In this document: piece by piece, positions 7,796 through 52,576 of the stretch | How the letters are laid out: each line of letters begins with the position of its first letter | Numbering within the stretch: the first letter of the stretch is position 1 | IMG/VR virus record: IMGVR_UViG_3300032245_000936 | Span: 48,658 to 112,657 of that record | Reading direction: 5' to 3' (one strand) | From: a virus | Length of the DNA: 64,000 bases | Made by a program: the position numbers and the translations under genes | The notes under the pieces: model-generated | The model's input: the letters and a program-made list of their open reading frames with translations, nothing else | Database searches by the model: none | What the model was told of the DNA's origin: nothing

Positions 7796-8792
7796 TCTCA
7801 ATTTCCTCTTTAAGTTGTTGTATAAAGTACGGATTGCTACCTAGCTCTTGTGACATCCTACTTACTTGCCTGTAAGTGTATTTATATATGCTACAGAGCT
7901 CCACGATAGGACCTTTGTTTTTGATTTGCTCAAATAAACAGCCTTTTTCGCAGTAGTTTTTTACTTCGCAGGATTGACACTCGGGCATTTGTGCATATTT
8001 GGGTATTTCTGCAATCAGCTCGGGTGCTTTGGTAAAACGTGTGCAGGGCACAATCTTGTTGTCGCTGAACATGAATATGTCTGTTCCTGCGCCGCAGTTG
8101 TGTTTTTCTAATCCTTTAACTTTGTAATTTAAAAAATGGCGAAGATAAAATGTGATGAAAAACGGCATCTGCTCATGCGGATTTGCGATGTACCAATCAA
8201 ACAGTTCTTCGATACCTGCTTTGAGTTTTTCCACACTAGCAGAATCCCATACATCAACGTCACGTACCAGCGTAAGCTCTGGATTCACTCCAAAGTGCTT
8301 TTTTATAAACAAATGATTTTCCAATAGGTTATAGCAACCCTTGTAAATCATTGTGTGCATACGTAGGTTGGGTATCTGTTTGAATAGATCTGCTTTTTCT
8401 AAAAATCTATGTGAGGTTTTGCGACCGTTTAACTGTAGCCTATATTTGTCTTGCCACAGTCCGTCAAAACTCACAGATGTTTCAATTTGTTCTTTAACTA
8501 GGTACTCCAGTATTTCATCTGTTAACAACAACCCATTCGTGGGCATGAATAATTTTACATTGCCATCTTCACGTACACCATCTACTATACGCTGAATCAA
8601 ATCAAATTGCAACAGGGGCTCACCCCCAAAAAAATCAATCTTGATACGTTCAGTCGGGTGTTGTTCCCGCATCTTTCGAAACTCATCAAGATACATGTCT
8701 ACATCAATGGCTTTTTTGCTCCATTTATCCACGTCACAGTAGGTGCAATTTAGATTGCACTTTTCTGAAAGGACCACAAGCAAGGTTTTCAT
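7785..8792 (-). CDS. Radical SAM/SPASM-domain protein
   Basis: CNLNCTYC, FFGGEPLL, PTNG, VSFDG; SPASM CGAG...VPC...CQSCEVKNYCEKGC...C. Confidence 0.92.
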   Translation of the reverse strand: MKTLLVVLSEKCNLNCTYCDVDKWSKKAIDVDMYLDEFRKMREQHPTERIKIDFFGGEPLLQFDLIQRIVDGVREDGNVKLFMPTNGLLLTDEILEYLVKEQIETSVSFDGLWQDKYRLQLNGRKTSHRFLEKADLFKQIPNLRMHTMIYKGCYNLLENHLFIKKHFGVNPELTLVRDVDVWDSASVEKLKAGIEELFDWYIANPHEQMPFFITFYLRHFLNYKVKGLEKHNCGAGTDIFMFSDNKIVPCTRFTKAPELIAEIPKYAQMPECQSCEVKNYCEKGCLFEQIKNKGPIVELCSIYKYTYRQVSRMSQELGSNPYFIQQLKEEIENVN

Positions 8793-28300: not shown

Positions 28301-31300
28301 AAACGTGTATCAACTCCTGCACGAGTACCCCGGGCAATACGTCCAGCTTCTAAGTCGTCCCATAGCAGTTTGTTTGCACCAGTATACGGAGCTGGGCCGT
28401 ACACTTCTGTCCACCATGTTGGCTGTTCACTAAAACCTAGCATCTCCCATGGTGCAGTATTAGGACGGTCGGTGTCATAGTAATGTTGATATACTGCTCT
28501 CCAGAATCCTGGCAAGAATTCTCCGTCGGCATCTTTGAGATAATGATAGTTCCATGACCATGAATTATTGGCTGCAAAGGTATCATTGCGTGTGTAGTTT
28601 AATTGATTATTACCTACCCAATTTAAGAAATTGCGTGTTAACAATCTATTAAATTCTGCAAGAGTGTATTCAGTATTGCGGAACTTGCCGGGCAAGTAAT
28701 CATATATGTCTAAGATATTGGCTTGGTAGTCAACTTTGATGTTGTTGTAGATTCGAAGTTCTAGCTCCATCAACAAACGATCACGTATGTCATTGAACAC
28801 AGGAGTTAGCGATCCGTCGTGTCCTTGGATCACCATCACTGGTACTTGATATGTAGTATCCTCAAACATTGTTGGAACATAACGTGGATATAAACCTAGC
28901 TTGGTAGGTGTTTCAGGAACATAACTACCAATAGTGCTTGGTCTTTCAACCACTAGCAATGTTTGTGTATAGGTTAGTTGTACGTGGTCAGCTAGATCAA
29001 TGGCCGGCAAGGTTTGATTAAATTCAAAATCAATTCCTTTAATCAATTGTTGATTAAGTCCAATAGAGTCATCGCGAAGATATACCAATATGCTACGACG
29101 ACTTAACTCCATGTCTTTGTAGATGTTTGGAATTTCGTAACGACGACGCTGTGTATTGATTATTTTTATTGGAGTATTAACTACTGCGCCACCCCATGGC
29201 ACCATGTCACTGTCATACCATGGACTGGTTGAGTTCTTGCCTACCATGACAGAAGTCATTACAACTTCAAACGCATCAGCAATGTTTGATGGTAAATCTT
29301 GTTTCAAGCATTGATCTAGGAATCGTTGCTTGAACCTAGTATATTCTTTTTGTGCATATTCTGCGGCTTCAACAAATCCCAATCCCTTGCTTATATTACT
29401 GCTAGTAGCCGACGAGTTTGCTTCTAGACTGCTAGTAGCAGAATCACCAAGCATGATTGCGGCATAGGTTCCAGGACTTGCATGTTGTACAATCGAGCCT
29501 TGCCAATCTTTAATATACAAATCTCTAGAATTATTTTTTCCTGCAACTGTTCCAGATAATCCTAGATGATTCTCACTCATATGAGTAAAGTGGTTACGCA
29601 TCTGTCCTAGGGTTAGTACAGTGAAATTAGAATTTTGTGCATTCACGTCAATGTTTGACGGAATCTCGTAATACCCCATGTTGCTCTTTGCTTTTGCATA
29701 GATAAAAATATCCACGTTACTTGCTGGTTTAACTTTCAACAATGCCTGATCAACAACCACTGCATAACGGCCGCCGTATTTGCGTAGTGTATATTGATCA
29801 CTGGAAATTTTGCTGTGATCAACATATACCTTGATATAAGGTATAGCCGCACTTGGCAAGGGCAATATATCAATTTCAAAATAATTGGTACGTCCATCAA
29901 ACTCATGATGTATAATTTGATACTGTTTGGTTTTTTCTTCGAGCTTGGTCCAAATATTTCTAAAAGCAAATGTTCCGTTGACTCGTGTTTTTAGAAAATA
30001 ATTGTTTACATTGCGAGAAACTTCAACTGTATCCAAATTATAGCGGAATGTGTCAATATCAAAGTCATTGTTGAACTGTATATCTCCAACGTTTTGGAAA
30101 CTGCGATAGCTCAACGGGAACCCTAGGAATTTGTCATTAGCTCCTGTTCCTACTTTGTATGAGTATACTTTTGTGCCTGCAAACTTGCTACCTGGATAGT
30201 AGTTTGAATCTCCGACAGAATTTCCATCTTTGTCAAAAATATCAAACAAAGGTGACTGATTATAATTGTTTTTCTGCTGACCAGGAATCCACTCTTGTCC
30301 AGTGTAGTAGTACTGATTAAACAATGTGATCACGCCAGTTTTTAACTGTGCTGTTGCAGTTGAACCTGCAGTGGGTTCTGTCAGTAATATTGTATCACCT
30401 GCTTCGTAGGTGTCTGGAGTGGTATCACCATCGCTAGCAATAAAATTGGTTGCAGAAGTAATTTCTGCAATGGCTTTTGCGGCATAGGTAAATGTTGCTT
30501 CAATGGTAACAAAAGGTTCTTGAGCAATATCTAGAATCACTCGATACTGCTTTTCAGTTGCTGATAACTGTACTGTCTGTAAGTCAACTACCTTAGGAAC
30601 ATCTGCGCCAGTGGTTAATCCAATGCCATTGGCGTTGTAGTTACTGGTCACTGTTGCGCCAATTTCAATACCATCATGATCTGGAACGATCAATACTGTA
30701 CCACCAGCACAGTCAGTGAATTTGGTCACTGCTGGAATTTGTGGTGTTATAGTGATTCGAGGTGCAGATGTATATTCTGCGCCAGGGTCAGTGATGTCAA
30801 TTCCAACAATCTTAGATGGAGCAAGTTTTGTAGTAACTACTGCACTAGTAGAAAACTTCAACGGAATATTCTGTCCAAGAGTAATAACAGAATTAACATA
30901 CACAATACTACTGTATTGATCAACGCTGGTCACGCGAAGATTGTCTGGCAACGATCCTGCAAGGTCTGTCACTGACATACCGGCTTGAATCCCCATAACA
31001 GTGTTCAAACGCAGGCCAGTCTCTGTAGCATTTTTACCTAACAACACTTGATTTACAATGTAAGATGTTTTATCAGAGCCAATTGGCTGTGACGAAGCAA
31101 ATTGTTCTTGTGTGAAGAAACGATTCTGTGCAGAGAATACAACTTTGCTACCAGCTGGTAGATCAATTGGCTCGCCGTCAGCATCACGAGCATCAATGTC
31201 ACCAGTTAACACAACCTGATTATCAGCCACCGCCAGTACTTTTAGAATATTCGCATTGGACAGATCCACGTCCATATAGAACTGATATGTGTCTGGATTT

Positions 31301-34300
31301 GGTCCTGTTACCTCAGTTTCAACATACGGAGTTCTAGAGAAGTCAGCATAGTAGAAACCACCAGTGGCATTTGGTACTACCAAGAAAGCCAACCAACCTG
31401 GTTTTATATATTGTACGTCTGTGTAGGAGTCAAAGGTTAAAACTCTTGATCCGTAAGCAGAAGCTTCTCCGGTGGCAACTTCTACATTGTTAATCACTGT
31501 GGTGATAATGTCTGTGCCCAAGCGATATCCAGAACCCACAGATTGAATTGTAAAGTATTCAATTGTGTTATTGTTCAGAATTGCTGTTGCAGTTGCTTGT
31601 GCAGTGAGAATTTCTGGATTTGACGGTGGTGGTGGTATAGTCAAACTTGGGGCGCTGGTATAACCAGATCCAGGGTCATTGATAATCACTGTGTAAATTC
31701 CGCTACCATCGCCGTTGGCGCTGCCTTTTGCAGGAACGCCTAAGAAAACTAATTCTGTGCCTTGTTTCAAACTCACTGATTTGCTAAGTTGCAGAGTGGT
31801 GCTATCAATAATTCTTATTACTCTCGTGTCGTAGGGCACAGTATACCCCGAGGTGTATCCACCAGAAACATACTCAAAGTAACTACGACCGTCAACTGGA
31901 TCAGTGAGTCCAACATCGCTGTACAAGTTAATTGTTAATGTGTCAACTACATCAACATAATAACTGTTGTTGTTTAACTGTGTGGTTCCGTTTACACCAA
32001 TAATGGTCACTAGATCGCCATTGACAAACCCATGAGGATTGCCCGGACTTGTGGTAATAGTAATTGGTAATACCACCGCAGAAGTGGTATACAGGAAAAT
32101 GTTTTGAATTGGAACAGGAGTTGATCCGCCCACAAGTATCATGTTACGCATGGTATATTGTGTGGTGTCAACTTTGATCTGAGTTTGGTATCTCACTGTC
32201 TCTGACACAATTGAAACATTTCCAACGTTGCTCTTGAATGTCAATGGCACTGTGAGTGTGTTGGCATTAGGGCCTGGTTTAGCCTCATCAGCACCAAACA
32301 AACGCACAGGAATGCTGAGTGTGATATTTCCCGAGATTCCATTTACGGCAGAAACTTTTGTTCCACTAAGAATATTAGGTGCATATACAAACCAATTTTG
32401 TGCTAGCCCAGACGGCACTGCATCCAAAGTGATAGTATCTGAAGTCACAAGCCCGTTGGCAAATGCGCTAACAAAAGTATTTGCTTGAGCTGGATTTGGA
32501 GAGCTGAATATGACATCGATGTTTTGTGCTGAATACCCTGCGCCTTTGTCAGTGATACGAATATAATCAACATACTTGAATGCGTTGTAAACAGGAGTAA
32601 TCACTGCCGGAGTATCGTATGTTGTTGAAATTGTTACTGTTGGTTCAGCAATGTAGTTTAGTCCAGAGAAATTTACATCAATCAAATTAACGCTGGTTGG
32701 TGCAGCCAGGGCCACGCCTTGTGCAGTACGAGTACCAATACCAGGAAAAGGTGAAGTAAATGTCACAGTTGGAACGGTGGCATAGGTTGGTGCTGTGGCA
32801 TAATTTGTTCCGCCACTGATCAATTCAATTTGCCCAACATAGCCTGTGCCTGTTAGATGAGCCACTGCATTGGCTCCAATGCCTTTGCCTTTGTTTACAA
32901 AAACAATAGTAGGTGTTCCACGGTAACCTGCACCTGTATTACCAATGATAATATTAGTAACAGTTCCTGTAATAGGATCTATATTTGCTGTGGCAGTAGC
33001 AGGGTATATTGGATTACCTCCAATAACAGCAACCTGTGTGTCTTGGACCATGGTGGCGCCTGACACATAATAGCTTGGGGCTGTTTGTGTATTCTTGCTT
33101 ACCAAATGAATCTGGGTCTGCTGACTAGTGGAAATAAAATCAACTTGCCAAATTCTATTTCGTACATCTGGATCCAGATCATTGGCAAAAATAATACGTG
33201 TTCCACTGGTCAGCTGACGTGTGACGCCATTAGGAAGTCGCACTATAAATTCTGTTTTACCTTCAACTTGGCTAAAGGCATCTGTAACTGTGTAGTCAAT
33301 TATGTCAACTGGTGCTTTTGCACGACTACCATGGTTGAACAGCATAATGTCTGCTTCAAATTCAATAATAGGGCGGCGAGCGCGAGTGTCTGCAAACTGC
33401 TCAAGTATGGTTGTATCGTTATTATACTTTGCGGTCAATGTCAGCAAGTCAGTGTGGAACCAGCGGTTACTGCGCGACCATGCGTTTAAATCTGAACTTG
33501 CACGATTGATAGTAACATAATCAGGTGTGGTTACTAATGGATTAACGTATTCCTCAGGTATAATCAAATTACCAACAGGAACCAATGTAATTGATCTACC
33601 AACACCTTCAACAATGTATAATCCATTAGAGTAGATAGCTGGAACAACAGTTGAGTCAAATCTTATTTTTAGCCCATTAGTAAACTTAACGCCATTGGGA
33701 CTGGTATAAACAGGTTTGCCAATAATATCTGTTTCAACATCAAGTTGTGCAAAGTCTGGTTCTACTAAACGAATAATTCCAGAGTACTTGCCGTCTACAC
33801 CATCCTGGTAGTAAAGAGTATCTAATGTTGCAGTGATTGGACGAACCGGTTCCCACTTTTGTCTTGAATTCTTAAAGAATGTAACACCAGAGTTTGCTTT
33901 ACCGGCTTTTACAAATACTTTTTGTCCAACATTAACCTGACGAATAGGAACCAATTGAATTACAAAGCGGCCGCCACCAGTATCAAAAGTACTGATGCGG
34001 AAAATATCTTGTCTATTCTCTTGAGGAATGTATACTGGAGCATCTTCACTGTCAAACGGACGGAAATCAAACACACCAGGATCAGTCCAGTCTTCGTTGT
34101 TGTCGCTAGGATTTAAAAAAATCAAAGTACGGTCGCGCAAACTTTCTGTTACGCCATCAATACCACCAGCGCGGACCAGATTTGAATTCAAATGATTTTG
34201 CAGTTGTGCAAAAGTCAAGGTAGTGGCCAAGTCAACATCGGCAACTTTCTCAGCTGAGATGTATGCGTCTTGAGCATTGGTATTTGGTACACGGAATGTA

Positions 34301-35001
34301 ATAAGTCCAGCGTCTATACCGTTGTTGTCAATTCCCAGGATGTCGCGGCTTAATGCTTCTGATTCAGTTGAGCGTGTGCCTGTTGCACCTAACTGAGTTT
34401 GAATCCAAAATGGATGCCCGGCTTGGCTGATGCTAAAGGTATAGGTAGTTCCTTTAACCAAAGTAAGAATAGGATTACTGTCAGTACCAAAACCAGTGAA
34501 ATTATATCCATTGGCAACTCTGTTGTAGTTTACTTTGTAATCAAGTACTTGCACATCAGAGCTGGCTGACACAGCCACTTCAGGAGGGCCATCTGGTAAC
34601 CAGTAGTATTGATTGAAGTTAACAAATTTATCAAAATCAATCAATCCATTGAAGTTGTAACTTTCGCCTGCAAACAAACGGCTATGGTCATTGACCAAAC
34701 CACCGTAGTAAGCAATTTTTTGCAACAAGTCTGTGTAGCTGTTAAAGAATGCAACATTTTTATTTGCATCTTCAACTACCATACTGGCTTCAAGTTGATA
34801 ATTCTGACGTTCTGCGGTTGGCTCTGGTATATAACTGTCTCCAGACACAAACGTAGGCGCGACTTGTCTTCCGATATAACCATTGATTTTTCTAAAATCT
34901 GGTTCTGATATCAGCTGATCCATAGTAGCAGAAACAAACTTATTGTTTGTTTTGCTCCTAAAGATCTCAGGCAAAAAATTGATACTTTTACGTACAGCCA
35001 T
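16321..35001 (-). CDS. Giant (6226 aa) baseplate wedge/virion structural protein
   Basis: Uninterrupted 18.7-kb ORF directly downstream of the gp6-like gene; many GxGY..P repeats, FG-GAP-like and BNR-like propeller repeats. Confidence 0.8.
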   Translation of the reverse strand: MAVRKSINFLPEIFRSKTNNKFVSATMDQLISEPDFRKINGYIGRQVAPTFVSGDSYIPEPTAERQNYQLEASMVVEDANKNVAFFNSYTDLLQKIAYYGGLVNDHSRLFAGESYNFNGLIDFDKFVNFNQYYWLPDGPPEVAVSASSDVQVLDYKVNYNRVANGYNFTGFGTDSNPILTLVKGTTYTFSISQAGHPFWIQTQLGATGTRSTESEALSRDILGIDNNGIDAGLITFRVPNTNAQDAYISAEKVADVDLATTLTFAQLQNHLNSNLVRAGGIDGVTESLRDRTLIFLNPSDNNEDWTDPGVFDFRPFDSEDAPVYIPQENRQDIFRISTFDTGGGRFVIQLVPIRQVNVGQKVFVKAGKANSGVTFFKNSRQKWEPVRPITATLDTLYYQDGVDGKYSGIIRLVEPDFAQLDVETDIIGKPVYTSPNGVKFTNGLKIRFDSTVVPAIYSNGLYIVEGVGRSITLVPVGNLIIPEEYVNPLVTTPDYVTINRASSDLNAWSRSNRWFHTDLLTLTAKYNNDTTILEQFADTRARRPIIEFEADIMLFNHGSRAKAPVDIIDYTVTDAFSQVEGKTEFIVRLPNGVTRQLTSGTRIIFANDLDPDVRNRIWQVDFISTSQQTQIHLVSKNTQTAPSYYVSGATMVQDTQVAVIGGNPIYPATATANIDPITGTVTNIIIGNTGAGYRGTPTIVFVNKGKGIGANAVAHLTGTGYVGQIELISGGTNYATAPTYATVPTVTFTSPFPGIGTRTAQGVALAAPTSVNLIDVNFSGLNYIAEPTVTISTTYDTPAVITPVYNAFKYVDYIRITDKGAGYSAQNIDVIFSSPNPAQANTFVSAFANGLVTSDTITLDAVPSGLAQNWFVYAPNILSGTKVSAVNGISGNITLSIPVRLFGADEAKPGPNANTLTVPLTFKSNVGNVSIVSETVRYQTQIKVDTTQYTMRNMILVGGSTPVPIQNIFLYTTSAVVLPITITTSPGNPHGFVNGDLVTIIGVNGTTQLNNNSYYVDVVDTLTINLYSDVGLTDPVDGRSYFEYVSGGYTSGYTVPYDTRVIRIIDSTTLQLSKSVSLKQGTELVFLGVPAKGSANGDGSGIYTVIINDPGSGYTSAPSLTIPPPPSNPEILTAQATATAILNNNTIEYFTIQSVGSGYRLGTDIITTVINNVEVATGEASAYGSRVLTFDSYTDVQYIKPGWLAFLVVPNATGGFYYADFSRTPYVETEVTGPNPDTYQFYMDVDLSNANILKVLAVADNQVVLTGDIDARDADGEPIDLPAGSKVVFSAQNRFFTQEQFASSQPIGSDKTSYIVNQVLLGKNATETGLRLNTVMGIQAGMSVTDLAGSLPDNLRVTSVDQYSSIVYVNSVITLGQNIPLKFSTSAVVTTKLAPSKIVGIDITDPGAEYTSAPRITITPQIPAVTKFTDCAGGTVLIVPDHDGIEIGATVTSNYNANGIGLTTGADVPKVVDLQTVQLSATEKQYRVILDIAQEPFVTIEATFTYAAKAIAEITSATNFIASDGDTTPDTYEAGDTILLTEPTAGSTATAQLKTGVITLFNQYYYTGQEWIPGQQKNNYNQSPLFDIFDKDGNSVGDSNYYPGSKFAGTKVYSYKVGTGANDKFLGFPLSYRSFQNVGDIQFNNDFDIDTFRYNLDTVEVSRNVNNYFLKTRVNGTFAFRNIWTKLEEKTKQYQIIHHEFDGRTNYFEIDILPLPSAAIPYIKVYVDHSKISSDQYTLRKYGGRYAVVVDQALLKVKPASNVDIFIYAKAKSNMGYYEIPSNIDVNAQNSNFTVLTLGQMRNHFTHMSENHLGLSGTVAGKNNSRDLYIKDWQGSIVQHASPGTYAAIMLGDSATSSLEANSSATSSNISKGLGFVEAAEYAQKEYTRFKQRFLDQCLKQDLPSNIADAFEVVMTSVMVGKNSTSPWYDSDMVPWGGAVVNTPIKIINTQRRRYEIPNIYKDMELSRRSILVYLRDDSIGLNQQLIKGIDFEFNQTLPAIDLADHVQLTYTQTLLVVERPSTIGSYVPETPTKLGLYPRYVPTMFEDTTYQVPVMVIQGHDGSLTPVFNDIRDRLLMELELRIYNNIKVDYQANILDIYDYLPGKFRNTEYTLAEFNRLLTRNFLNWVGNNQLNYTRNDTFAANNSWSWNYHYLKDADGEFLPGFWRAVYQHYYDTDRPNTAPWEMLGFSEQPTWWTEVYGPAPYTGANKLLWDDLEAGRIARGTRAGVDTRFARPGLNKYIPVDDIGLLLSPEKLVVSNFDGTRTGASWSIGDQGPVETAWRRSSAFPYAVQIALALAKPAFYFGSMFNTNNYYRDRDIDQLLLTTTKQRVTQTSFDIPSDGIGINETTTFTAGYVNWIRDYLVSKGLPASQTLRNYITNFKLKLGYKMAGFADSKFLTILADQSSPSSNSSSVVIPQENYKIFLNKGTPLNRLIYSAVIIEKSAGRYTVTGYDTITPYFTIIPSSSNNNAYKISELNETAVVYRDFQRTRITVPYGYEFTTRQEIVDFLVSYGRFLIGQGFVFDEYNIDLTIKQDWVLSAREFLVWSQQGWKAGNVLVLSPAFNAIKVTNKNGVVDHVENVLNGSKVLDQNFTIIKNNQFTVTREDNTFTLESIFGQTFGLVDLNLVQYEHVVVFDNTTVFNDVIYVPELGSRQYRLKLIGNKTGSWTGQLNPAGFIYNNDKVDIWQVGTQYRRGSLVNFKDNYYYASVEVNAAAEFDFSKWTPIEKSRIKTGLLPNFALNAQKFNNIYDLDNHPADSTLDQFSQGLVGYRARNYFQDFDLDQTSQVKFYHGFIKQKGTLSSVTTLTRGNFNNLGSNISLYEEWGFRVGDYGALGSDQAIEIVLDESTFVNDPTAVVLLARGETPVNNAVNVTPETVYRFTEDTYNPQIVRARTDVTPRISDNLTAGYPRLDDVDYTVYDISDFASYYQLVEQIGAGYKLWVAKDFNKDWNVYRATETDITITEIRIGVADTIQISFDLPHGLEVNNLFVLKSFDPDFNGFYRVTTVTDQFTVIVPGYRNLQRLRKQQTIEGKGIFFVMDSVRYNQVSDITKFTPIHGWRENDRVWVDNDISNGVWAVFEKSSQWNFNQLMPIRDGDFSSGERYGASARISVDNRLYVAGTPGYSQGTISGLRVLNPGSGYGPLTKVFISTPDVAGGYAPVTNVRISSGTLINAQLTAIGLNYQLQPNITIVDGTTHTLISNTLLSDVMTFGNVANVYVGDSISLTAGQYGYSNIFVSDGITVQQIFSNNNKVRVSGTLSANTGIAVNFTRGTGGIINARLSPTNVTFIDVIDGGSGFTSVPSVEIIGGGGSGATAGAVTISSGTITAIAVATGGAGYTEPPIVNLITTNPTPVILRSRLSPVPIKDLIVSQPGQSYKEPKLLIQAYSGDTGVGATGTVGVTDNSIASVTIYPLLPGTGYAKAPVATVYDPDGTGSGAVLETIFTTGAVKAFTRPGAVGTLDLEAINTLRPFSVDAIEFGHAVDIGYTYTFASAPGSFTARGAVQVSEYFKTNWLNKQVLSPVDLEPNARFGESLACSRDEKWLYVGAPGANKVYVYARKSPGTGQLKINIDAERRVYSYVTNFVDVTNPAVLKVVGTSGRVFLAAFDYSISGGILTFIPPTGSVDPFDAIEGEVAVYVTRQAQPTTIIPLKDANDLYQTIYPLVQRPNGVETISVVGSSGRLYVPSREFTVIGSTIIFLTQEFINEASITVSPLDPYYVEAAVLEPDDRITWKTKDELKALYDDASVITLVQTIHDLEAQTRSINNTYTTYSEMVDANLANGTLAKVMNYVAELGTYSQYEIYIYLADQYIVIGTENLLVSRISKFGQAVACTNLGYQVVVGAPEVSIDTGIEQPSGGTVIAKAGKSYVFDRAYQVYTGTGSGQTLFTTSLALGVVNRVTLDDFEVREGIDYTASGFTVRFFEAPKSGQRIKIDINKFNLIQNIPSVDPVYQGFFGKSVAMAPDNQGIFIGAPGYRDVNYYNGRVYRFVNQGLFYGSTLTTQLYPVTTLGDTIRINDVDVLLSGSIDTATGNGSSLKVLNDISAQNIIGVTSSVEGISGIEFNNRGAGYFSTNVAITVAPPDLITGTQALVGNIQIFGGNGAIKSYDIIENGSGYTSLPKVTITGARTTQASAIAINDGSPLRIEVTSTQAIKRLDILPGVGTGLKDTGIKVYALTQVIEHPRLDQPEKFGYVIRCDGQTGETLVISSDGAATLASVTFDAKGTIFDRDTTRFIDSLKNSGAVYVYDYLPVPGETLQNPGKFLFNQVLQNSKIKFNDNFGSSVDINNGRIMVGAFNSSYYSTQAGLMHLFINPTSKKGWSKLRSRSELVDIDYINKVSAYNKKTQVALSTFDYYDPAKGKILGIADQDIDYKTSYDPAFYNKGTDTTVNIDATSYWNDVQIGRVWWNLDACRYITYEQGELTYRISQWGGLFPGSTIEILEWVESQYLPSDYVANGGDGVPKYPNDSAYVEVAYIDTQSGLVKTKYYYWVTDKVSVDTAKTKRINSISAISDIIQNPIKQELPYIAALSTNTFAVYNSKPFISGKDSILRIEYAQVLNNNIAHSEYELVQQGNPLSAIPTKLINKLIDSLAGENLTGDVVPDLKLREVDRLGISLRPRQSMLKDQAAGTRVLVQFVNKFFKQYLIAKEYDLTQLKLAEAIPQENLGFYDSRVTTKDALAYFTPADLFDGFRVLVETDADYSGFWTIYFYTAKDKTFTLERIQSYDSTRYWNYANWYINDTFNDNIQVNHIINSYNDIETLKEKVVDGDILKVTNFGGNFELYQLAVDSAGIITPTLVGAENGTIQLNSSLYDNTKSLVGFDNPGFDTTGFSKSLAIEARNIINGIFNYIFIGDNRVQLNKVFFALVNYILSEQQNADWLFKTSFITVVQKIRKLEQFASYIKDQQDYYQSYINEVKPYRTQLRDYLLDYEGLDESYNAIADFDFPAYYDPVRGTTRSLNPTKATDLAIVNAGVWKNWYQNYRYSIQRIVVTDSGSGYKQRPLVRISGGGGVSASARAVLDTDGKVVSVTITSPGQYFTSAPTITFVGGGGSGAKAYAELVSLTGNTTVDNSSKTVRTITTILNFDRITYSSSVRTWKPYTTYHVGDIVVVPDVKTSVFYNLPDQAVPSFSTPYRVLKTILGTVTLDLNIFQNDAVVQKLSGSDVDNAVDRLAAFHKPGTPDVAVLFNSPDTVRLTPASNNNDASSTGNQWARTAFSGVIPAANEYQYISVGQRGLLSYSQDGVNWTNVPLNDQAVNLRDVVYYNGTTWVAIGNRGYVLTSLDAVNWNIDQIITFRYSPSLDAVNGLVLNEAAQAVDLTGVTAFTSTQGSYILTVGNSDTILLNPTDTNASAPFENTWYAAKAQPKVYNTPANFLAVDSRSFGDLSLFIRAKTLRASATWAAVTGSTLIVRIPTADISGTIEFGMTMISPYVPTNHGVINVDSSTTPGTTVIQLGFTENTAIAAAGTVGTTRPAQMVHFAYYNANLEGSGSFTLNGFGKPMQVGFVVIGGINGNMYITSYNRLDDLQQGYKLSYNYDSGKGTDFNYPWIPMNVPKSVAGDSDGYSGEQINAIAISDDVGQWIIAIGSGGTLIWNKLDSPLQVQLGNADTGADTIGKVVMNYGINVFKNFREFDSDNFVLPLSAENVRKYDFTDISWDGEKFIVVGNKSTVIWGYPGYNDEVYIELGNINPNRYAYTRNSSAHWTGGTGLTSLIISIPVTDVIGAPIRGMTLNGAGLPTDSIITNVELIAGSWNITISFASANITTTVLGSFIAEYLFTAEIPVGTVLTFTDIDTATTKTLTVSRTAAKGDSVVYVNGYEKVTANWSISGTGIPLAATVNGIGRFAKFTWKFARGSGRDNNINYESIVVNKTTLQLNKPLSLPNKPSTDTSVAIPAGTSLTFFDATGTKIQKTTTQDVRNNTTTLIFETTDGLKIDYVLSPDTVFGIQSGTKIVSTAQYNIAGVLDHLYRDIPDKIPGASYPGGLVKGQEFLQTNTDPLSLDTIISSEYTDNLLGIRPEDIIVDGGKFIDKYSSHAPEELVPGQVIDSLQMNVFTANVTNGNIDYGNVTAFKIFTDYKLSTVYYRLPDANTTVLTANLSYEDTEISVADIARLPAPAAAINQPGSIWVNGEKINYFGIDLNRGVLTDIRRGAQRTSIPLVHVAGSIITDASPVQQFETDTVLTISNDYSVYNNIGNASIQNTAVYRVATTTHVPQGSIWLDLGQ

Positions 35002-47711: not shown

Positions 47712-47740
47712 TTGCATTTGTCATTGACTTTGTCTATACT
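47712..47740 (+). promoter_or_regulatory. sigma70-type promoter just before gp47
   Basis: TTGCAT-17 bp-TATACT, ending 8 nt before ATG 47749. Confidence 0.6.
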
Positions 47741-47748
47741 TGCAAGTT

Positions 47749-48762
47749 ATGTCTAATCTATTTAAAAAGGCTGCTGTCTGGACTGACATCCACTTCGGCC
47801 TCAAAAGTAACAGTGTCACGCACAACGAAGATTGTTTGGCGTTTGTTAAATGGGCCACGGCCAAAGCCAAGGAGGAAGGATGCGAGACCTGCTTCTTCCT
47901 TGGTGACTGGCATAATAATCGAGCCGCACTAAACATTCTCACGCTCAATTACAGTTTAAAAGCACTGGAGCATATGAATGATAATTTTGAACGTGTGTAT
48001 TTCATTCCTGGCAATCATGATTTGTATTATCGAGACAAACGAGATGTGCAGAGTGTGGAATGGGCAAGACATCTTCCCAATGTACAAATTTGCAACGACT
48101 GGTTTAGCGATGGTGATGTTACTATCGCTCCTTGGCTTGTTGGCGAAGATCATAAAAAACTATTAAAGAAAAAAGGCAAGTATTGCTTTGGACATTTTGA
48201 ACTGCCCGGCTATTACATGAATGCCATGGTACAAATGCCAGATGTTGGCGAAGTTAGACGTGAAAATTTCCTGGGCTTTGAACAGGTGTTTACTGGGCAT
48301 TTCCATAAACGTCAAACAGCCAACAACATTACCTATATTGGCAACTGTTTCCCACACAACTATGCAGACGACGGCGATGAAGAGCGCGGCATGATGATCC
48401 TGGAATGGGACAAAGAGCCAGAGTATCATGCTTGGCCTGATCAACCCACATATCGTGTGTTGAGTTTATCCAGCATTGTTAACAACCCTGAAAAAATATT
48501 CAAACCCAGAATGCACGCCAGGGTCAACATTGACATTGATCTCAGCTATGAAGAAGCCACGTTTATCAAAGAAACATTTGTTGAAACTTACAAACTGCGT
48601 GAGCTTAGTTTGATTCCCAAGAAAGAAATTGAAGTTGGGGCCGATGTTACTGGCGAAATTAAATTTGAAAGTATTGACACAATCGTGCAAAATCAAATCA
48701 ATGCAATTTCCAGCGAGCACTACAATTCTAAATTGTTGCTGGACATCTATAGGAACTGTTAA
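47749..48762 (+). CDS. gp47: Recombination endonuclease subunit (Mre11/SbcD-like)
   Basis: Phosphoesterase motifs DIH, GDW, GNHD, GHFE, GHFH. Confidence 0.93.
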   Translation: MSNLFKKAAVWTDIHFGLKSNSVTHNEDCLAFVKWATAKAKEEGCETCFFLGDWHNNRAALNILTLNYSLKALEHMNDNFERVYFIPGNHDLYYRDKRDVQSVEWARHLPNVQICNDWFSDGDVTIAPWLVGEDHKKLLKKKGKYCFGHFELPGYYMNAMVQMPDVGEVRRENFLGFEQVFTGHFHKRQTANNITYIGNCFPHNYADDGDEERGMMILEWDKEPEYHAWPDQPTYRVLSLSSIVNNPEKIFKPRMHARVNIDIDLSYEEATFIKETFVETYKLRELSLIPKKEIEVGADVTGEIKFESIDTIVQNQINAISSEHYNSKLLLDIYRNC

Positions 48763-50531
48763 TGTTTGTAATCAAAGATCTTACCTGTAAGAACTTCATG
48801 AGTGTGGGTAATTCCACACAAGCGGTACGGTTCAATCGCAATGACCTTACACTGGTACTGGGACAGAATCTAGACCTTGGTGGCGACGACACAGGCGCAC
48901 GTAATGGCACTGGTAAAACTACAATTATCAATGCCTTGAGCTATGCACTCTATGGAGAAGCACTGACCAAGATCCGCAAGGAGAACTTGATCAACAAGAC
49001 CAATGGCAAAGCCATGATGGTTACCATTGAGTTTGACAAAGACGGAACAAGCTACAAGATTGAACGTGGGCGTAAACCCAACACACTGAAATTCTTTGTA
49101 GGTGATATTGAACAAGAAGTCAAAGATGAAGCACAAGGCGACAGCAGAGAAACACAAGTAGCCATTGAAGCATTGTTGGGCATGAGCCATGAGATGTTCA
49201 AGCACATTGTGGCACTGAACACCTATACAGAACCTTTCCTTAGTCTCAAGGCAGCAGAGCAACGTGTGATGATTGAGCAGTTGCTGGGTGTCACACAGCT
49301 ATCAGAAAAAGCTGAAACACTCAAAGAGCAAATGAAGGCTACCAAGGATGGTATTACCAAAGAGGAATATCGCATCAAGGCAGTGCAGGATGCCAACAAA
49401 CGCATGGAAGAGCAGGTTGCAAATATCAAGCGCAGACAGAACATGTGGCAATCCAAGAAGCAAGAAGAACTGGACAAGCTGGCGCTGGCCTATGATGAAT
49501 TGGGCAAGATTGATATCGAAGCCGAGTTGTTGTCACACCAGGATCTAGCCAAGCACACACAGTTGGTTAAAGATCGTGCGGACATACAAAAACTAGTTGC
49601 TCGTTGTGAATTAGATGAAGCAAAAGAAAACAAAGCGATAGACAAGCTCAAAGCAGAAATTGCACAGCTAGAAGATCACAAATGCTATGCTTGTGGGCAG
49701 GAAATGCACGATGAAAAACACGGGCAGGTGCTTGCAGATAAACAAAAAGCTCTGCAGGAGGCTGCACTACAAGCATTGAGTACTAATACTCAATGGATGG
49801 AACTTACTGATGCTCTTGCAGAGCTAGGCGAGCCCGGACCCGCTCCTACTACATTCTATGAGCGTGAAGCTGATGCGTTTGAGCATCGTGCTAGCTTGGG
49901 CAATATTCTAAGCCAGATCACTGCAAAAGAAGAAGAAGCAGATCCATATGCAGAACAAATTGCAGAAATGGAAACTAGAGCAGTAGAAGAAATTGACTAC
50001 GATGAAATGAATCGTTTAACCACACTGCTAGATCATCAGGATTTCCTGCATAAACTGTTAACCAGCAAGGATAGTTTTGTGCGTAAACGCATCATTGACC
50101 AGAACTTAACCTATCTAAATCAGCGTCTAAGCTACTATTTGGACAAGATTGGATTACCGCACACAGTGATATTTCAGAACGATCTAACGGTGAATATTAC
50201 AGAGCTGGGCCGCGAGTTAGACTTTGATAATCTCAGTAGAGGCGAGCGAAATAGACTGATTTTAAGCCTGAGTTGGGCGTTTAGAGACGTATATGAGAGC
50301 CTGTATCAGCCTATAAATCTGCTGTTTATCGACGAAGTAGTAGACTCGGGTATGGATGCTAGCGGTGTAGACAATGCACTGGGCATACTTAAAAAGATGG
50401 CTAGAGACCGTAACAAGAGTGTTTGGCTTGTATCCCACAAGGACGAGCTGAGCAGTCGAGTAAACAATATCCTAACTGTGACCAAAGAAGGTGGATTCAC
50501 TAGTTACAGTTCGGATACAGAATTAGTATAA
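48762..50531 (+). CDS. gp46: Recombination ATPase subunit (Rad50/SbcC-like)
   Basis: KNFMSVGN, Walker A NGTGKTT, coiled coil with CYAC hook, LSRGE signature, IDEVVD, VSH. Confidence 0.93.
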   Translation: MFVIKDLTCKNFMSVGNSTQAVRFNRNDLTLVLGQNLDLGGDDTGARNGTGKTTIINALSYALYGEALTKIRKENLINKTNGKAMMVTIEFDKDGTSYKIERGRKPNTLKFFVGDIEQEVKDEAQGDSRETQVAIEALLGMSHEMFKHIVALNTYTEPFLSLKAAEQRVMIEQLLGVTQLSEKAETLKEQMKATKDGITKEEYRIKAVQDANKRMEEQVANIKRRQNMWQSKKQEELDKLALAYDELGKIDIEAELLSHQDLAKHTQLVKDRADIQKLVARCELDEAKENKAIDKLKAEIAQLEDHKCYACGQEMHDEKHGQVLADKQKALQEAALQALSTNTQWMELTDALAELGEPGPAPTTFYEREADAFEHRASLGNILSQITAKEEEADPYAEQIAEMETRAVEEIDYDEMNRLTTLLDHQDFLHKLLTSKDSFVRKRIIDQNLTYLNQRLSYYLDKIGLPHTVIFQNDLTVNITELGRELDFDNLSRGERNRLILSLSWAFRDVYESLYQPINLLFIDEVVDSGMDASGVDNALGILKKMARDRNKSVWLVSHKDELSSRVNNILTVTKEGGFTSYSSDTELV

Positions 50532-50573
50532 TTTTTATCATGGCACACAAAGAGATAATTATGTTTGCAGATC

Positions 50574-51002
50574 ATGACATGGACTTATCAAGGAAACCCA
50601 GTTGAAGAATTGCCCGACGACTGTGTGGGGTTTGTCTACATGATTACAAACACAATCTCTGGAAGAAAATACATAGGCAAAAAACTAGCAAAATTTTCAA
50701 AAACAACTACCAAAACGGTAAAACTTAAAAACGGCACCAAAAAGAAAAAGAAAATCCGCTCCAAGATTGACAGTGATTGGCGCACATATTATGGCTCAAG
50801 CCCAGAACTAACCAAAGATGTTGTAGCACTAGGCTCAGAAAACTTTTCCAGAGAAATCCTCTTTATTTGCAAATCAAAGGCAGAATGTAGTTACATTGAA
50901 GCTCGAGAACAATTCACACATAGAGTACTAGAATCAGCAGATTACTATAACGGACACATACAAGTCCGTGTACATGGCTCCCACATAATCAACAAACTCT
51001 GA
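50574..51002 (+). CDS. Small GIY-YIG-like nuclease-fold protein with a poly-Lys insertion
   Basis: GFVY..TN..SGRKYIG, SDWRTYYGSS, F.REIL, EAREQF, YYN. Confidence 0.75.
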   Translation: MTWTYQGNPVEELPDDCVGFVYMITNTISGRKYIGKKLAKFSKTTTKTVKLKNGTKKKKKIRSKIDSDWRTYYGSSPELTKDVVALGSENFSREILFICKSKAECSYIEAREQFTHRVLESADYYNGHIQVRVHGSHIINKL

Positions 51003-51471
51003 CACCCAGTCAAGCAATCAAAACAGTAAAGGCTAGCACAGGCCAAGCTCGTGTGCTCTATACCTGGACCTCGGGTCACAGGGACGGAATCCTCTGCGCT
51101 GTACAGAGTACTCAATCACTATCCTTGACAGGACGAAGATCACTAATTGCCGTGGTTTGATTGTTTGAATAGGTGTTAAAGGCTAAAAAGACGCTCTAGC
51201 GATAGAGCACGATTAGTAGATATGTTAGCGTATGTTTACTATTCCGCCGTTGTTATAAAGACACAACTCGAGGTACCGGACAACCGCCTCTGTAATGTTG
51301 TAACGCTAATGTGGCTGTGCTACTCAGATGAAGTACATTCATTTTCTTTGCCCTGTGCGGGCAAAGTGTGACCGCTTAATCTAGATGATATACTTTCGCG
51401 CTTCGCGCATCGATTATAATTAAAAAAATATTGCTGAGCGGTAGCGAAGCAATAGATCTCGTTAGAGATCT
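51000..51471 (+). ncRNA. Candidate large structured non-coding RNA
   Basis: About 12 hairpins/stems in a gap with no plausible plus-strand ORF, including a long-range 13-bp stem (51010-51022/51156-51168), a GCGA tetraloop and G-U pairs on the plus strand. Confidence 0.6.
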
Positions 51472-51707
51472 TAAAAGAATGGCATACCTGATTTCTTCGT
51501 TGCTTCCATATTGTCTTTGATAATATCAGCAATGATTTCTTTTTCTATTTTGCTTAATGCCATTGCGTCTTCGTAGGATAAGCCTCCACGCATCCACCAC
51601 GTGAATCTGAGGGCTTCTTCTTTTATGGCTCTTACCTCTTTTTCGTAGCCCGTGACTAGAGCTTCGATGCCTTCATTGTCTAATGCTAAGAGCCGTTGCC
51701 GAAAAAA
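51471..51707 (-). CDS. gp51-like/tail chaperone extension expressed by a -1 frameshift from the gp26-like gene
   Basis: The -1 frame after T TTT TTC reads RQRLLALDNEGIEALV...WWMRGGLSYEDAMALS...SGMPFF*; no start codon at its 5' end. Confidence 0.75.
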   Translation of the reverse strand, partial: FFRQRLLALDNEGIEALVTGYEKEVRAIKEEALRFTWWMRGGLSYEDAMALSKIEKEIIADIIKDNMEATKKSGMPFF

Positions 51708-52576
51708 TTTGTATAGTCAAACACCACATTCATGTCGATGCCTTTTCCACATTCAGGGTTTTGACACTTGACAGGCTGTGATGGTACCTTGCCTGCTTCA
51801 GCTACTTCAGCTAATCGTTCTTGAATCTCAGACACTATCTTGCCGCCGGCGTTTTTATAAAACTCAACAATGAATTCTTTGTCGGCTACTTGTAGATTAA
51901 GATCATCTACAGGAGCAATCCATTCTGTGCATTCTGCTAGTATCTCTAGATTTAGATCCAACAGTCGATTCATTTGTGCAGTCACATGATCACTCTTTTC
52001 GTCACTGGACTGCATGGAGTCAATGTACTGTCCTAGTTTCTGCACTTCGAAGTTGATCTTGTTTGCACGGTTCTGTCCAAAGTATGCTTGAGGACGGAAC
52101 TGAATCAGGAACTGTGTGGTTTGATACGCATGTTCGTAGTCAGGACAGGAAATTTTGTCTAGCATGGCACGTAGATCCATGCTAAAGGTATTGTCCTCAC
52201 CGCAGTGCGGGCACTTGCTTTCAAAATCCATCATGTGACCGTAGCTGGCAATGCGTATGGCAATCAATGTGGTATCCACATCCACCGCTGGCATTTTCCA
52301 GGCGTCTTTGATATTTGGGCAACAGCTCTGAATTACTTCTACCATGCCCTGTCCGTTGATCAGCGCATCTGGGGTACGAATAATAACTTCATCCTTGCTG
52401 GTCATTGGGTACACTGGTAACTCACCGGTGGCTGGTATATCCAAACTGCCTTCTGCCCACCACTTGCCCTGGCTAGGCAGCGCCATGTAAATTGCAGGCT
52501 GGCGAAAGTACTTGGATAGCGGATTTCCTGATGGATTTCCGGGAGGTGTTAGTTGTGGCATTGGTTCTGTGCCCAT
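51686..52576 (-). CDS. gp26: Baseplate hub assembly/tail chaperone, T4 gp26-like
   Basis: LPS.G...PMT.KDE..., DVDTTLIAIRIASYG, CPHC and CQNPEC zinc motifs, ends in NFF. Confidence 0.8.
   Translation of the reverse strand: MGTEPMPQLTPPGNPSGNPLSKYFRQPAIYMALPSQGKWWAEGSLDIPATGELPVYPMTSKDEVIIRTPDALINGQGMVEVIQSCCPNIKDAWKMPAVDVDTTLIAIRIASYGHMMDFESKCPHCGEDNTFSMDLRAMLDKISCPDYEHAYQTTQFLIQFRPQAYFGQNRANKINFEVQKLGQYIDSMQSSDEKSDHVTAQMNRLLDLNLEILAECTEWIAPVDDLNLQVADKEFIVEFYKNAGGKIVSEIQERLAEVAEAGKVPSQPVKCQNPECGKGIDMNVVFDYTNFFGNGS

What the first reader, a model, noticed from the sequence alone, without database searches (positions are those of the whole stretch)
51000..51471. ~470-nt highly structured candidate ncRNA starting at the stop codon of a GIY-YIG-like gene
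Seen: domain 1 is closed by TGACACC/GGTGTTA (51000-51006/51172-51178) and TCAAGCAATCAAA/TTTGATTGTTTGA. It encloses the hairpins AGCACA/TGTGCT, CCTG-GACC/GGTC-CAGG, CTCTG/CAGAG and TCCT/AGGA. Downstream lie GCTCTA-GCGA-TAGAGC, a G-U-rich stem (51215-51241), a nested ACAAC/GAGG/CGG stem, CTTTGCCC/GGGCAAAG, TATTGCT/AGCAATA and AGATCTC/GAGATCT. Mismatches resolve as G-U on the plus strand, which points to selection on RNA. TAAAGGCTA (51027, 51177) and AGATGAxxTAC each occur twice. I recognise no tRNA, tmRNA, RNase P or intron core. Inference: an undescribed large phage RNA, in an otherwise gene-dense genome.
Basis: partly seen in the sequence, partly recalled or inferred. Interest (0 to 1): 0.85.

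Follow-up and report, generated by a model that had tools for sequence, protein, structure and literature searches.

The report
Full-length twin-box Polynucleobacter-1 phage RNA
The gene-free stretch behind a small nuclease gene of this uncultured giant T4-like freshwater phage encodes a real, triply knotted non-coding RNA of about 450 bases; its first third has been catalogued since 2010 without a function, and the rest carries one 7-letter word twice for a partner that is still unknown.

Summary
Window 51024-51471 (+) is a conserved structured RNA. On 79 distinct homologues, 91% of cells pair, against 76% in shuffles and 34-41% in slid controls, and 75 of 99 pairs show compensatory changes. 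There are three pseudoknots.

It is not wholly undescribed. Positions 51031-51166 match Rfam RF01718 (Polynucleobacter-1 RNA) at 115 bits (threshold 37). Weinberg et al. 2010 already noted that motif downstream of one gene family. The 3' 300 nt match nothing in Rfam.

A 7-nt word follows CUC (51326-32) and again follows UCU (51383-89). The two copies are identical in 77 of 79 relatives. The word has changed about 30 times, always in both copies together.

I found no complementary partner in the RNA, in the flanks, in neighbouring proteins or in two complete genomes.

In these sets the RNA always follows a SegE-type GIY-YIG gene (83/83 and 59/59 loci). The word does not covary with that protein, and cultured relatives carry the gene without the RNA.

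Function is unknown. My best guess is that the twin boxes read a nucleic acid. This scan has found the same RNA family many times on other DNA.

The parts
50574..51002 (+). SegE-type GIY-YIG nuclease gene, 142 aa, catalytic domain only with a Lys-rich insert. It is always the gene upstream of the RNA.
   Evidence: Pfam PF19835 at 5.4e-35 over residues 6-132. tblastn matches start at the ATG at 50574. Found upstream in 83 of 83 RNA-selected loci.
51024..51471 (+). Full-length structured non-coding RNA. The ends are inferred from where conservation starts and stops.
   Evidence: Alignment A3 of 79 distinct homologues. Structure counts. The window's 49-aa ORF at 51222-51371 is kept in only 6 of 79.
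51031..51166 (+). 5' domain, the Rfam RF01718 Polynucleobacter-1 motif. Helices: P1 51036-40/51052-56; P2 51064-70/51074-81; P3 51092-95/51105-08; P4 51113-17/51159-63; P5 51123-24/51131-32; P6 51138-43/51152-57.
   Evidence: cmscan 115.1 bits against a gathering score of 37, model positions 1-141 of 141. Helices are 81-100% paired with compensatory changes.
51031..51044 (+). Pseudoknot PK0: GGCU (51031-34) pairs with GGCC (51041-44) in the P1 loop.
   Evidence: 90.8% paired against 82.8% in shuffles (0 of 500 as high) and 13-49% in slid controls; GC:51 and AU:24 at one pair.
51193..51208 (+). P7 hairpin GCUCUA-GCGA-UAGAGC, preceded by the invariant AAAAGA.
   Evidence: 6 of 6 pairs have double changes.
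51211..51244 (+). P8 long G-U-rich hairpin. Its loop forms PK1.
   Evidence: 12 of 12 pairs have double changes; 92-94% paired.
51225..51309 (+). Pseudoknot PK1: UUAGCGU (51225-31, the P8 loop) pairs with ACGCUAA (51303-09).
   Evidence: 98.1% paired; 7 of 7 pairs have double changes. Mutual information.
51249..51301 (+). Compact knot. PK2 is GUUGU (51249-53) with ACAAC (51280-84, the P10 loop). P9 is 51263-67/51297-51301. P10 is 51270-74/51286-90. Contains the invariant GGUACCGGACAACCGCC.
   Evidence: PK2 is 99% paired with UA:60/CG:19 and GC:63/AU:12. P9 has 5 of 5 pairs with double changes. P10 has AU:66/UA:12.
51321..51334 (+). Twin box 1: UA-CUC-AGAUGAA-GU, with the word at 51326-32.
   Evidence: The word is identical to box 2 in 77 of 79 sequences and at 98-100% of each variable position in 124 sequences.
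51346..51366 (+). P12 hairpin CUUUGCCC-UGUGC-GGGCAAAG between the two boxes.
   Evidence: 94.8% paired. Replaced by a different complementary pair (UUCACCG/CGGUGAA) in class-B relatives.
51378..51391 (+). Twin box 2: AA-UCU-AGAUGAU-AU, with the word at 51383-89. In this window it differs from box 1 at the 7th letter.
   Evidence: The closest relative, L001, has AGATGAA in both boxes.
51398..51429 (+). Small variable hairpin P13 (51398-01/51405-08) and an A-rich spacer of variable length.
   Evidence: P13 is only 70% paired and is absent in some relatives.
51430..51453 (+). P14 hairpin with the conserved internal loop UGAGC...GCGAA (tandem G-A type).
   Evidence: P14a has 6 of 6 and P14b 2 of 2 pairs with double changes.
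51454..51471 (+). P15 terminal hairpin. It ends at the stop codon of the converging minus-strand gene.
   Evidence: 6 of 7 pairs have double changes, including G-U on the plus strand. ORF 51471-51593 on the minus strand.

Best explanation
SHOWN. Window 51024-51471 (+) encodes a roughly 450-nt non-coding RNA that belongs to the Polynucleobacter-1 family.
- The catalogued 141-nt motif is only its 5' domain.
- The uncatalogued 3' domain (51183-51471) is the part shared by all variants. Relatives exist with two other 5' domains.
- This 3' domain holds two of the three pseudoknots, an invariant core (GGUACCGGACAACCGCC) and two single-stranded 'twin boxes'.
- Each box has a pyrimidine triplet (CUC, then UCU) followed by a 7-nt word NNNURAN. 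The word is the same in both boxes and has changed about 30 times among 79 relatives, always in both boxes at once.
- The RNA sits in a fixed place: gp55-gp47-gp46, then a minimal SegE-type GIY-YIG nuclease gene, then the RNA, facing the baseplate operon.

INFERRED. The RNA is made with or just behind the nuclease mRNA. It folds into a compact knotted body that displays the two boxes, and the boxes are read by base pairing with a nucleic acid.
- The boxes change as often as ordinary base pairs in the helices, so only two sites have to change together.
- The partner is therefore either not encoded in the phage (a host RNA or DNA, with the RNA acting as a seed or guide; about 30%), or it is the opposite strand of the locus itself (box 1 RNA pairing with the template DNA of box 2, as I recall for ColE1 RNA II anchoring a persistent hybrid; about 15-20%).
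For: Family identity:
- RF01718 at 115.1 bits, full length.
- Same gene context as in Weinberg 2010.

Structure:
- 91.0% of cells paired, against 76.0% in shuffles (0 of 500 as high) and 34-41% in slid controls.
- 75 of 99 pairs have compensatory changes.
- PK0, PK1 and PK2 are each supported.

Non-coding: the window's ORF is kept in 6 of 79, and 1527 of 1776 gap runs are not multiples of three.

Modularity:
- The 3' domain is present in 59 of 59 loci chosen by the nuclease.
- The RF01718 domain is present in only 29 of those 59.
- Class B and class C relatives carry other 5' domains.

Twin boxes:
- Mutual information with the twin is 0.8-1.0 bit, against at most 0.2-0.57 with any other column.
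- 77 of 79 words are identical; the maximum in 10,000 shuffles was 29.
- Fitch changes are 18/19, 6/6 and 11/12 at the three variable letters, all joint. This is similar to helix columns, which show 5-32 changes.
- Ten words occur in class A/B, plus ACAUGAA in class C.

No partner found:
- None in cis.
- None in the neighbouring proteins.
- No further copies in the opposite orientation in two complete 345-347-kb genomes, beyond chance.

Linkage to the nuclease gene: 83 of 83 and 59 of 59 loci. Fixed synteny.
Against: - There is no transcript evidence. The ends are inferred from conservation only.
- The sigma70-like promoter at 50503-50532 is not conserved across the family, and no terminator follows P15.
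- No target of the boxes was found, so reading by base pairing rests on exclusion and on the rate argument.
- Seven nucleotides is short for a specific guide.
- GC skew gives no sign of an origin at 51 kb.
- The window's own boxes differ at one letter.
- The 100% linkage to the nuclease could mean a partnership that my covariation test cannot see.
Confidence: 0.75

Rival explanations
1. Ribonucleoprotein nuclease. The minimal GIY-YIG protein lacks a DNA-binding domain and would use the RNA, through its twin boxes, to find its DNA target, much as IscB and TnpB use their omega RNAs.
For: - Linkage is 100% in both directions in these sets.
- The protein is a bare catalytic domain of 142 aa with a Lys-rich insert.
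- HEARO RNA had the same history: an orphan RNA next to a nuclease gene that later proved to be a guide (my knowledge).
Against: - Box letters do not covary with any residue or base of the nuclease gene (maximum mutual information 0.18-0.45, against 0.78-1.0 for the twin; 131 pairs).
- The same protein family is a single-copy gene in 479 deposited phage genomes. In the four regions I inspected it had no RNA behind it: Melnitz (50% identity), S-SM2, ACP17 and phiM12.
- There is no variable guide at either end of the RNA.
- A 7-nt match gives little specificity.
- Earlier agents of this scan report relatives of the RNA without the nuclease (not checked here).
Confidence: 0.1
2. RNA-primed replication origin. 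Box 1 of the nascent RNA pairs with the template strand of box 2 and anchors a persistent RNA-DNA hybrid over the A-rich spacer. The 3' hairpins would form on the displaced strand.
For: - Identity of two sense-strand boxes is what an RNA-to-template-DNA contact needs (logic; I recall a ColE1 RNA II precedent, not checked here).
- The two-site rate of change fits a partner that changes automatically.
- A variable A/T-rich spacer follows box 2.
- P15 loops are of the C-GNA-G type, which is also stable in DNA.
- T4 origins use R-loops (my knowledge).
Against: - There is no skew extremum at the locus; skew follows gene direction.
- The triplets before the words (CUC and UCU) would give C-A mismatches in such a hybrid.
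- A 300-nt knotted 5' body is not needed for priming in T4.
- Nothing here measures replication.
Confidence: 0.15
3. Cis-acting end of the operon. The RNA would be a long structured 3' UTR that stabilises or terminates the gp55-47-46-nuclease transcript and insulates it from the converging late operon.
For: - It lies between converging transcription units, and P15 abuts the stop codon of the minus-strand gene.
- The RNA starts within a few bases of the nuclease stop codon in most relatives.
- On the minus strand, P7 followed by a T-run looks like a terminator.
Against: - Three pseudoknots, invariant unpaired blocks, alternative 5' domains and the twin boxes go far beyond what a terminator or stabiliser needs.
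- Relatives with a 0.8-1.3-kb insert between the gene and the RNA keep the RNA intact.
Confidence: 0.08
4. Protein-binding scaffold. The twin boxes would be two sites for a dimeric phage or host protein, and the RNA would act as a sponge or assembly platform.
For: - Two identical sites 45-60 nt apart in like contexts (GUGAC-N5-NA-YYY-word) suit a dimer.
- U4, R5 and A6 of the word, and the pyrimidine triplets, are fixed.
Against: A protein would have to change specificity about 30 times in step with both boxes. No neighbouring protein covaries.
Confidence: 0.12
5. Intron or mobile-element remnant: a group I intron core belonging to the GIY-YIG homing endonuclease gene.
For: GIY-YIG genes often sit in group I introns, and the RNA is pseudoknotted.
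Against: - No Rfam intron match even at E up to 1.
- No split host gene: the flanks are a complete gp46 gene and a gene on the other strand.
- The position is fixed and syntenic in all loci, and the nuclease diverges in step with gp46 (55-92% against 51-81% identity). This looks like vertical descent, not homing.
Confidence: 0.02

Closest known systems
Polynucleobacter-1 RNA motif (Rfam RF01718; Weinberg et al. 2010, Genome Biol 11:R31, PMC2864571)
   Same: Positions 51031-51166 are a full-length member (115 bits). The motif has the same helices, the same habitat (fresh water) and the same position downstream of one gene family (GOS11034, here identified as a SegE-type GIY-YIG gene).
   Different: - The catalogued motif is 141 nt and was classed as a possible cis element or sRNA.
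- Here it is one of at least three interchangeable 5' domains of a roughly 450-nt RNA.
- The conserved 3' domain of that RNA (two pseudoknots and the twin boxes) is not in Rfam.
- The 2010 paper found no copy in a purified phage. These copies lie in T4-like phage contigs.
GOLLD, ROOL and OLE: large ornate bacterial and phage RNAs (Kretsch et al. 2025, Nature, PMC12286853)
   Same: All are large, multiply pseudoknotted orphan RNAs found by comparative genomics. Some are phage-borne, and none has a known function.
   Different: There is no sequence or Rfam match. This RNA is smaller. Oligomerisation has not been tested. Twin identical boxes are, to my knowledge, not described for those RNAs.
ColE1 RNA II primer (persistent hybrid model of Masukata and Tomizawa 1990; recalled from memory, not checked here)
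   Same: As I recall it, an upstream RNA segment must have the same sequence as a downstream sense segment because it pairs with the template DNA there. That is an identity rule between two boxes of one transcript.
   Different: ColE1 uses G-runs 245 nt apart in a plasmid origin. Here the boxes are variable 7-mers about 57 nt apart. No origin function has been shown.
Matched take-off and landing sites: T4 gene 60 ribosomal bypass, coronavirus TRS-L/TRS-B (my knowledge)
   Same: Two identical short boxes are separated by about 50 nt with a hairpin between them. In most relatives the word reads GGA or AGA followed by UGA or UAA, much like GGA-UAG in gene 60.
   Different: - The region is not translated. 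The spacing from any start codon varies by 1-2 nt, and stops occur in all frames.
- The identity spans 7 to about 10 nt, not one codon.
- No copying enzyme is known to act here.
Omega-RNA-guided nucleases (IscB with HEARO RNA, TnpB)
   Same: A structured RNA is tightly linked to a small nuclease gene, and the RNA was first catalogued as an orphan motif.
   Different: - The nuclease belongs to a different fold family (GIY-YIG).
- The RNA lies downstream and has no terminal guide.
- There is no transposon.
- No covariation was found.
- The nuclease family lives without the RNA in cultured phages.

Membership tests
Rfam RF01718 Polynucleobacter-1 RNA | Covariance-model score at or above the curated gathering score (37 bits) over the whole model | tested here: met
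   115.1 bits, E 3e-24, model positions 1-141 of 141, window 51031-51166 on the plus strand.
Rfam RF01718 Polynucleobacter-1 RNA | Consensus helices kept through compensatory changes in relatives | tested here: met
   P1, P3, P4 and P6 are 96-100% paired and P2 is 81% paired; all five show double changes. P5 is invariant and therefore uninformative.
Rfam RF01718 Polynucleobacter-1 RNA | Lies downstream of the GOS11034 gene family (Weinberg 2010 supplement) | tested here: met
   The text is quoted. Here the upstream gene is the SegE-type GIY-YIG gene in 83 of 83 loci. That GOS11034 equals this family is inferred, not checked by sequence.
Group I intron with homing endonuclease ORF | Intron core detectable and a host gene split into two exons | tested here: not met
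   No intron family at E up to 1. gp46 is complete and the next gene is on the other strand.
tRNA / tmRNA | Detected by ARAGORN | tested here: not met
   No genes found in the window or in the 112-kb record.
SegE-type GIY-YIG nuclease (Pfam PF19835), for the upstream gene | Profile match over the catalytic domain above the cut-off | tested here: met
   120.7 bits against a cut-off of 25, residues 6-132 of the 145-aa ORF translation. No solved structure was found by sequence.
RNA-guided nuclease system (omega-RNA type) | The RNA carries a variable guide that matches targets, and the nuclease depends on the RNA | tested here: inconclusive
   Variable twin words exist, but no target was found and the words do not covary with the protein. 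Dependence cannot be tested with these tools.
RNA-primed origin (ColE1 / T4 R-loop type) | Replication starts at the locus from a persistent RNA-DNA hybrid | not testable with these tools
   Only indirect evidence is available: twin identical boxes and an A-rich spacer, with no skew signal.

The most novel reading that the evidence does not exclude
The twin boxes are a programmable two-copy address. The knotted RNA, alone or with a protein such as the adjacent domain-only GIY-YIG nuclease, would recognise a nucleic-acid target by pairing the same 7-10-nt word twice. Diversification of the word would then reflect an arms race or host switching. That would be a new kind of phage RNA-guided system.
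Probability: 0.12. Interest if true: 0.9.

Novelty: new variant of a known kind. Interest (0 to 1): 0.62.

Why it matters
- Phage genomes are densely coding, so a 450-nt knotted RNA kept at one locus is presumably doing something important.
- The RNA turns a 15-year-old orphan Rfam motif into one domain of a much larger molecule. It also shows that the uncatalogued 3' domain is the constant core.
- The identity rule between two boxes is rare in RNA biology. They change together about 30 times, as often as base pairs do.
- The known precedents are take-off/landing or RNA-to-template contacts (gene 60 bypass, coronavirus TRS, ColE1 RNA II, all from my knowledge). The feature therefore points to an unusual mechanism that can be tested directly by matched and mismatched box mutants.
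- Practically, Rfam RF01718 could be extended, and giant T4-like phage genomes could be annotated with this RNA.

Tried and rejected
1. One search used a wrong register for one stem and is superseded.
2. Protein coding is rejected. The 49-aa ORF is kept in 6 of 79. Mini-ORFs starting at the GUG of each box unit are rejected because the spacing varies by 1-2 nt and in-frame stops occur.
3. No Watson-Crick or G-U partner for the boxes exists inside the RNA, whether in the 5' domain, the 3' domain or the linker. The U-rich tail of the 5' domain can pair with some words but does not covary.
4. No exact complement or third copy lies within several kb. Most nuclease-selected loci carry 3 kb on each side, and the other loci are 1-15 kb long.
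5. No covariation with the GIY-YIG gene at residue or base level, nor with gp46, gp47, the baseplate protein or orf40.
6. Whole-record searches found only chance hits. In the 112-kb record, the two nearby hits at window 7592 and 7616 are Asp-Asp and Asp-Glu codons of a small ORF. Two complete relatives also gave chance-level hits.
7. Antiparallel box-to-box pairing is rejected, because every combination of the variable letters occurs.
8. Gene conversion as the cause of identity is rejected. Fixed differences (CUC/UCU and the 8th letter) are interleaved with the identical letters.
9. K-turn, C/D-box and CsrA-site readings are rejected, because common words (GAUAA forms, AGA forms) break those motifs.
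10. A family-wide sigma70 promoter upstream of the nuclease gene was not found.
11. No cultured phage carries the RNA. blastn of the region found nothing in 50,697 phage records (the window's own genome may be left out of that collection). Nothing lies behind the orthologous genes of Melnitz and S-SM2, and the annotation leaves no gap for an RNA behind those of ACP17 and phiM12.
12. Bacterial genomes: hits are freshwater MAG bins holding phage contigs, or chance 17-mers in GC-rich genomes.
13. Literature: no functional study was found.
Full report
**Context**

The window is the last 64 kb of a 112.7-kb IMG/VR virus record, rated 32% complete. Close relatives are 345-347-kb T4-like phages, one of which has terminal repeats.

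Around the finding the genes are:
- a Mre11-like gp47 (47740-48762) and a Rad50-like gp46 (48762-50531), both on the plus strand;
- a 142-aa SegE-type GIY-YIG gene (50574-51002; Pfam PF19835, 5.4e-35);
- the gene-free stretch;
- a T4 baseplate gene on the minus strand.

The single-sequence fold is only mildly better than shuffles, and about equally so on both strands (z -3.1 and -2.9). The case therefore rests on comparison with relatives.

I collected relatives in two independent ways:
- by the nuclease protein (80 loci kept out of at least 579 hits);
- by a 14-nt RNA pattern (120 stretches).

blastn and nhmmer show that the whole of 51024-51471 is conserved at 63-80% identity, about as well as the coding gene beside it.

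On an alignment of 79 distinct full-length homologues (A3), a structure of 19 helices gave these results:
- 91.0% of cells pair, against 76.0% in column shuffles (0 of 500 as high) and 34-41% when partners are slid by 1-3 columns;
- 75 of 99 pairs show changes on both sides.

A further pseudoknot, PK0, is supported.

They pair in 50.9% of cells against 51.3% in shuffles. Their 5' halves are coding sequence in most relatives. One of them also competes with helix P4, which covaries at all five pairs.

Invariant G-U pairs on the plus strand would be C-A mismatches on the other strand, so the plus strand is the RNA strand.

The region is non-coding. The window's 49-aa ORF survives in 6 of 79 relatives, and most alignment gaps are not multiples of three.

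**What it is**

Rfam places 51031-51166 in RF01718, Polynucleobacter-1 RNA, at 115 bits over the whole model. Nothing else in 50400-51800 matches any family, even at E up to 1.

The only paper on this motif is Weinberg et al. 2010. Its supplement says that the motif occurs in environmental samples and in one Polynucleobacter genome, that most copies lie downstream of gene family GOS11034, and that none was seen in a purified phage.

The present locus shows three things.
- That gene family is most likely the SegE-type GIY-YIG gene.
- The carriers are giant T4-like phages. The hits in 'bacterial' genomes are freshwater MAG bins that hold phage contigs.
- The catalogued motif is only the 5' third of a roughly 450-nt RNA.

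The 3' domain (51183-51471) contains:
- hairpins P7 and P8;
- PK1, which joins the P8 loop to 51303-09;
- a compact knot (PK2, P9, P10) around the invariant GGUACCGGACAACCGCC;
- hairpin P12;
- a variable A-rich spacer;
- hairpins P14 (with a tandem G-A internal loop) and P15.

This 3' domain is the constant part of the family. It follows the nuclease gene in 59 of 59 checkable loci, whereas the RF01718 domain is present in only 29 of those. Other relatives carry one of two different structured 5' domains (classes B and C).

**The twin boxes**

A mutual-information scan of 124 distinct 3' domains recovered the helices. It also found five column pairs that covary by identity, not by complementarity. 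These pairs lie in two 12-14-nt boxes about 57 nt apart, one on each side of P12.
- Box 1 is NA-CUC-word (word at window 51326-32).
- Box 2 is NA-UCU-word (word at window 51383-89).

The 7-nt word has the form NNNURAN. Ten words occur in classes A and B: GGAUGAA, AGAUAAU, GGAUGAU, GGAUAAU, AGAUGAA, AGAUGAU, GCAUAAU, GAAUAAU, AGAUGAG and AGCUGAG. Class C has ACAUGAA.

The two copies are identical in 77 of 79 full-length sequences. The most seen in 10,000 shuffles was 29.

I built a tree with the boxes left out. On it, the variable letters changed 18-19, 6 and 11-12 times, and the joint count equals the single-box counts. Every change therefore hit both boxes.

The window itself is one of the two exceptions (AGAUGAA against AGAUGAU). 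Its closest relative has AGAUGAA twice.

**Who reads the boxes?**

I looked for a partner and found none.
- No column of either domain covaries with the word in a Watson-Crick sense.
- No exact or G-U-tolerant complement sits at a consistent place in the loci.
- No residue or base of the nuclease gene tracks the word: maximum mutual information is 0.18-0.45, against 0.78-1.0 for the twin, over 131 pairs.
- No residue of gp46, gp47, the baseplate protein or orf40 tracks it. Only the slowly changing fifth letter follows phylogeny.
- The 112-kb record and two complete relatives hold no more copies of the 11-mer, in either orientation, than the reversed-pattern control.

Other explanations also fail.
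- Antiparallel pairing of box with box is excluded, because all combinations of the variable letters occur.
- Gene conversion is excluded, because fixed differences are interleaved with identical letters.

One inference seems useful. The boxes change about as often as the paired columns of the helices (5-32 Fitch changes). This fits a two-site constraint, not a three-site one. Three possibilities follow:
- the partner is outside the phage genome (the host);
- the partner is the opposite strand of the locus itself, as template DNA or antisense RNA, which changes automatically;
- the boxes touch each other in a parallel, like-with-like fashion, which would be very unusual.

**The nuclease**

Linkage is complete in these sets (83 of 83 and 59 of 59). 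Synteny is fixed (gp47-gp46-nuclease-RNA-baseplate genes). The nuclease diverges roughly in step with gp46. This looks like a vertically inherited gene, not a roving homing endonuclease.

However, the same family is a single-copy gene in 479 deposited phage genomes. In Melnitz (50% identity), S-SM2, ACP17 and phiM12 it sits in other contexts with no RNA behind it. In S-SM2 a tRNA cluster follows it.

Together with the lack of covariation, this makes a guide-RNA partnership possible but not favoured.

**Expression**

The window has a good sigma70-like site at 50503-50532, just upstream of the nuclease gene, but this is not general in the family. In most relatives the RNA begins within a few bases of the stop codon, so co-transcription followed by processing is the simplest reading. 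No intrinsic terminator follows P15. GC skew follows gene orientation and shows nothing particular at 51 kb.

**Verdict**

This is a real, large, triply pseudoknotted phage RNA, and the region does not behave like a DNA-only element. The 'undescribed' label is only two-thirds right. Its function is open, and the twin boxes are the lead worth following.

Notes of this scan show that the same family was met many times on other genomes, with the same conclusions. I reached the twin-box result before reading them.

Noticed in passing
window 16321-35001 (-): A single 6226-aa ORF lies inside the minus-strand structural block. It is very large for a phage protein. I did not examine it.
   Followed up: no
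window 6390-7565 and 7785-8792 (-): Two radical-SAM proteins (PF04055, about 1e-14 each) sit next to tail-fibre-like genes, with a small roughly 70-aa ORF between them (7566-7784).
   Followed up: partly
window 51471-51593 and 51686-52576 (-): The T4-baseplate-family gene (PF12322) stops at 51686, and a separate 40-aa frame runs on to 51471. Both pieces are conserved next to each other in relatives. This may be a frameshift. Another note of the scan covers it.
   Followed up: no
L005:3627-3972, L016:4514-4836, L027, L039, L089, L178 (alignment A3 columns 403-453): Some relatives carry a 30-60-nt insert of repeated (A/T)TTATAG(A/T) units between P10 and the 3' strand of P9. The same ACTATAG motif occurs upstream of the nuclease gene in some loci. 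It may be a phage promoter-like or mobile mini-repeat.
   Followed up: no
L022, L026, L029, L058 and others (class B); L002, L049, L055, L062, L077 (class C): Two further structured 5' domains replace the Rfam motif in front of the shared 3' domain. Class C also has a different knot region and the word ACAUGAA. In L062 a small CxxC-containing ORF (about 88 aa, L062:3427-3690) lies between the nuclease gene and the RNA.
   Followed up: partly
window 51191-51210 (-): Read on the minus strand, hairpin P7 followed by CTTTTT looks like an intrinsic terminator. It could stop antisense read-through from the late operon after it has crossed both boxes.
   Followed up: no
L208, L212 (Haliscomenobacter MAG contigs of 148 and 183 kb), L211/L275 ('Bifidobacterium' MAG), L213 (Polynucleobacter MAG): Several public MAGs contain contigs that carry this phage nuclease-RNA cassette. 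These contigs are probably phage DNA binned with bacteria.
   Followed up: no
L203 (Synechococcus phage S-SM2, NC_015279 140298-142683): In this cyanophage the orthologous small GIY-YIG gene is split or mis-annotated ('sodium:alanine symporter'). It is followed by a cluster of eight tRNA genes. So the gene sits at the head of a stable-RNA locus there too.
   Followed up: partly
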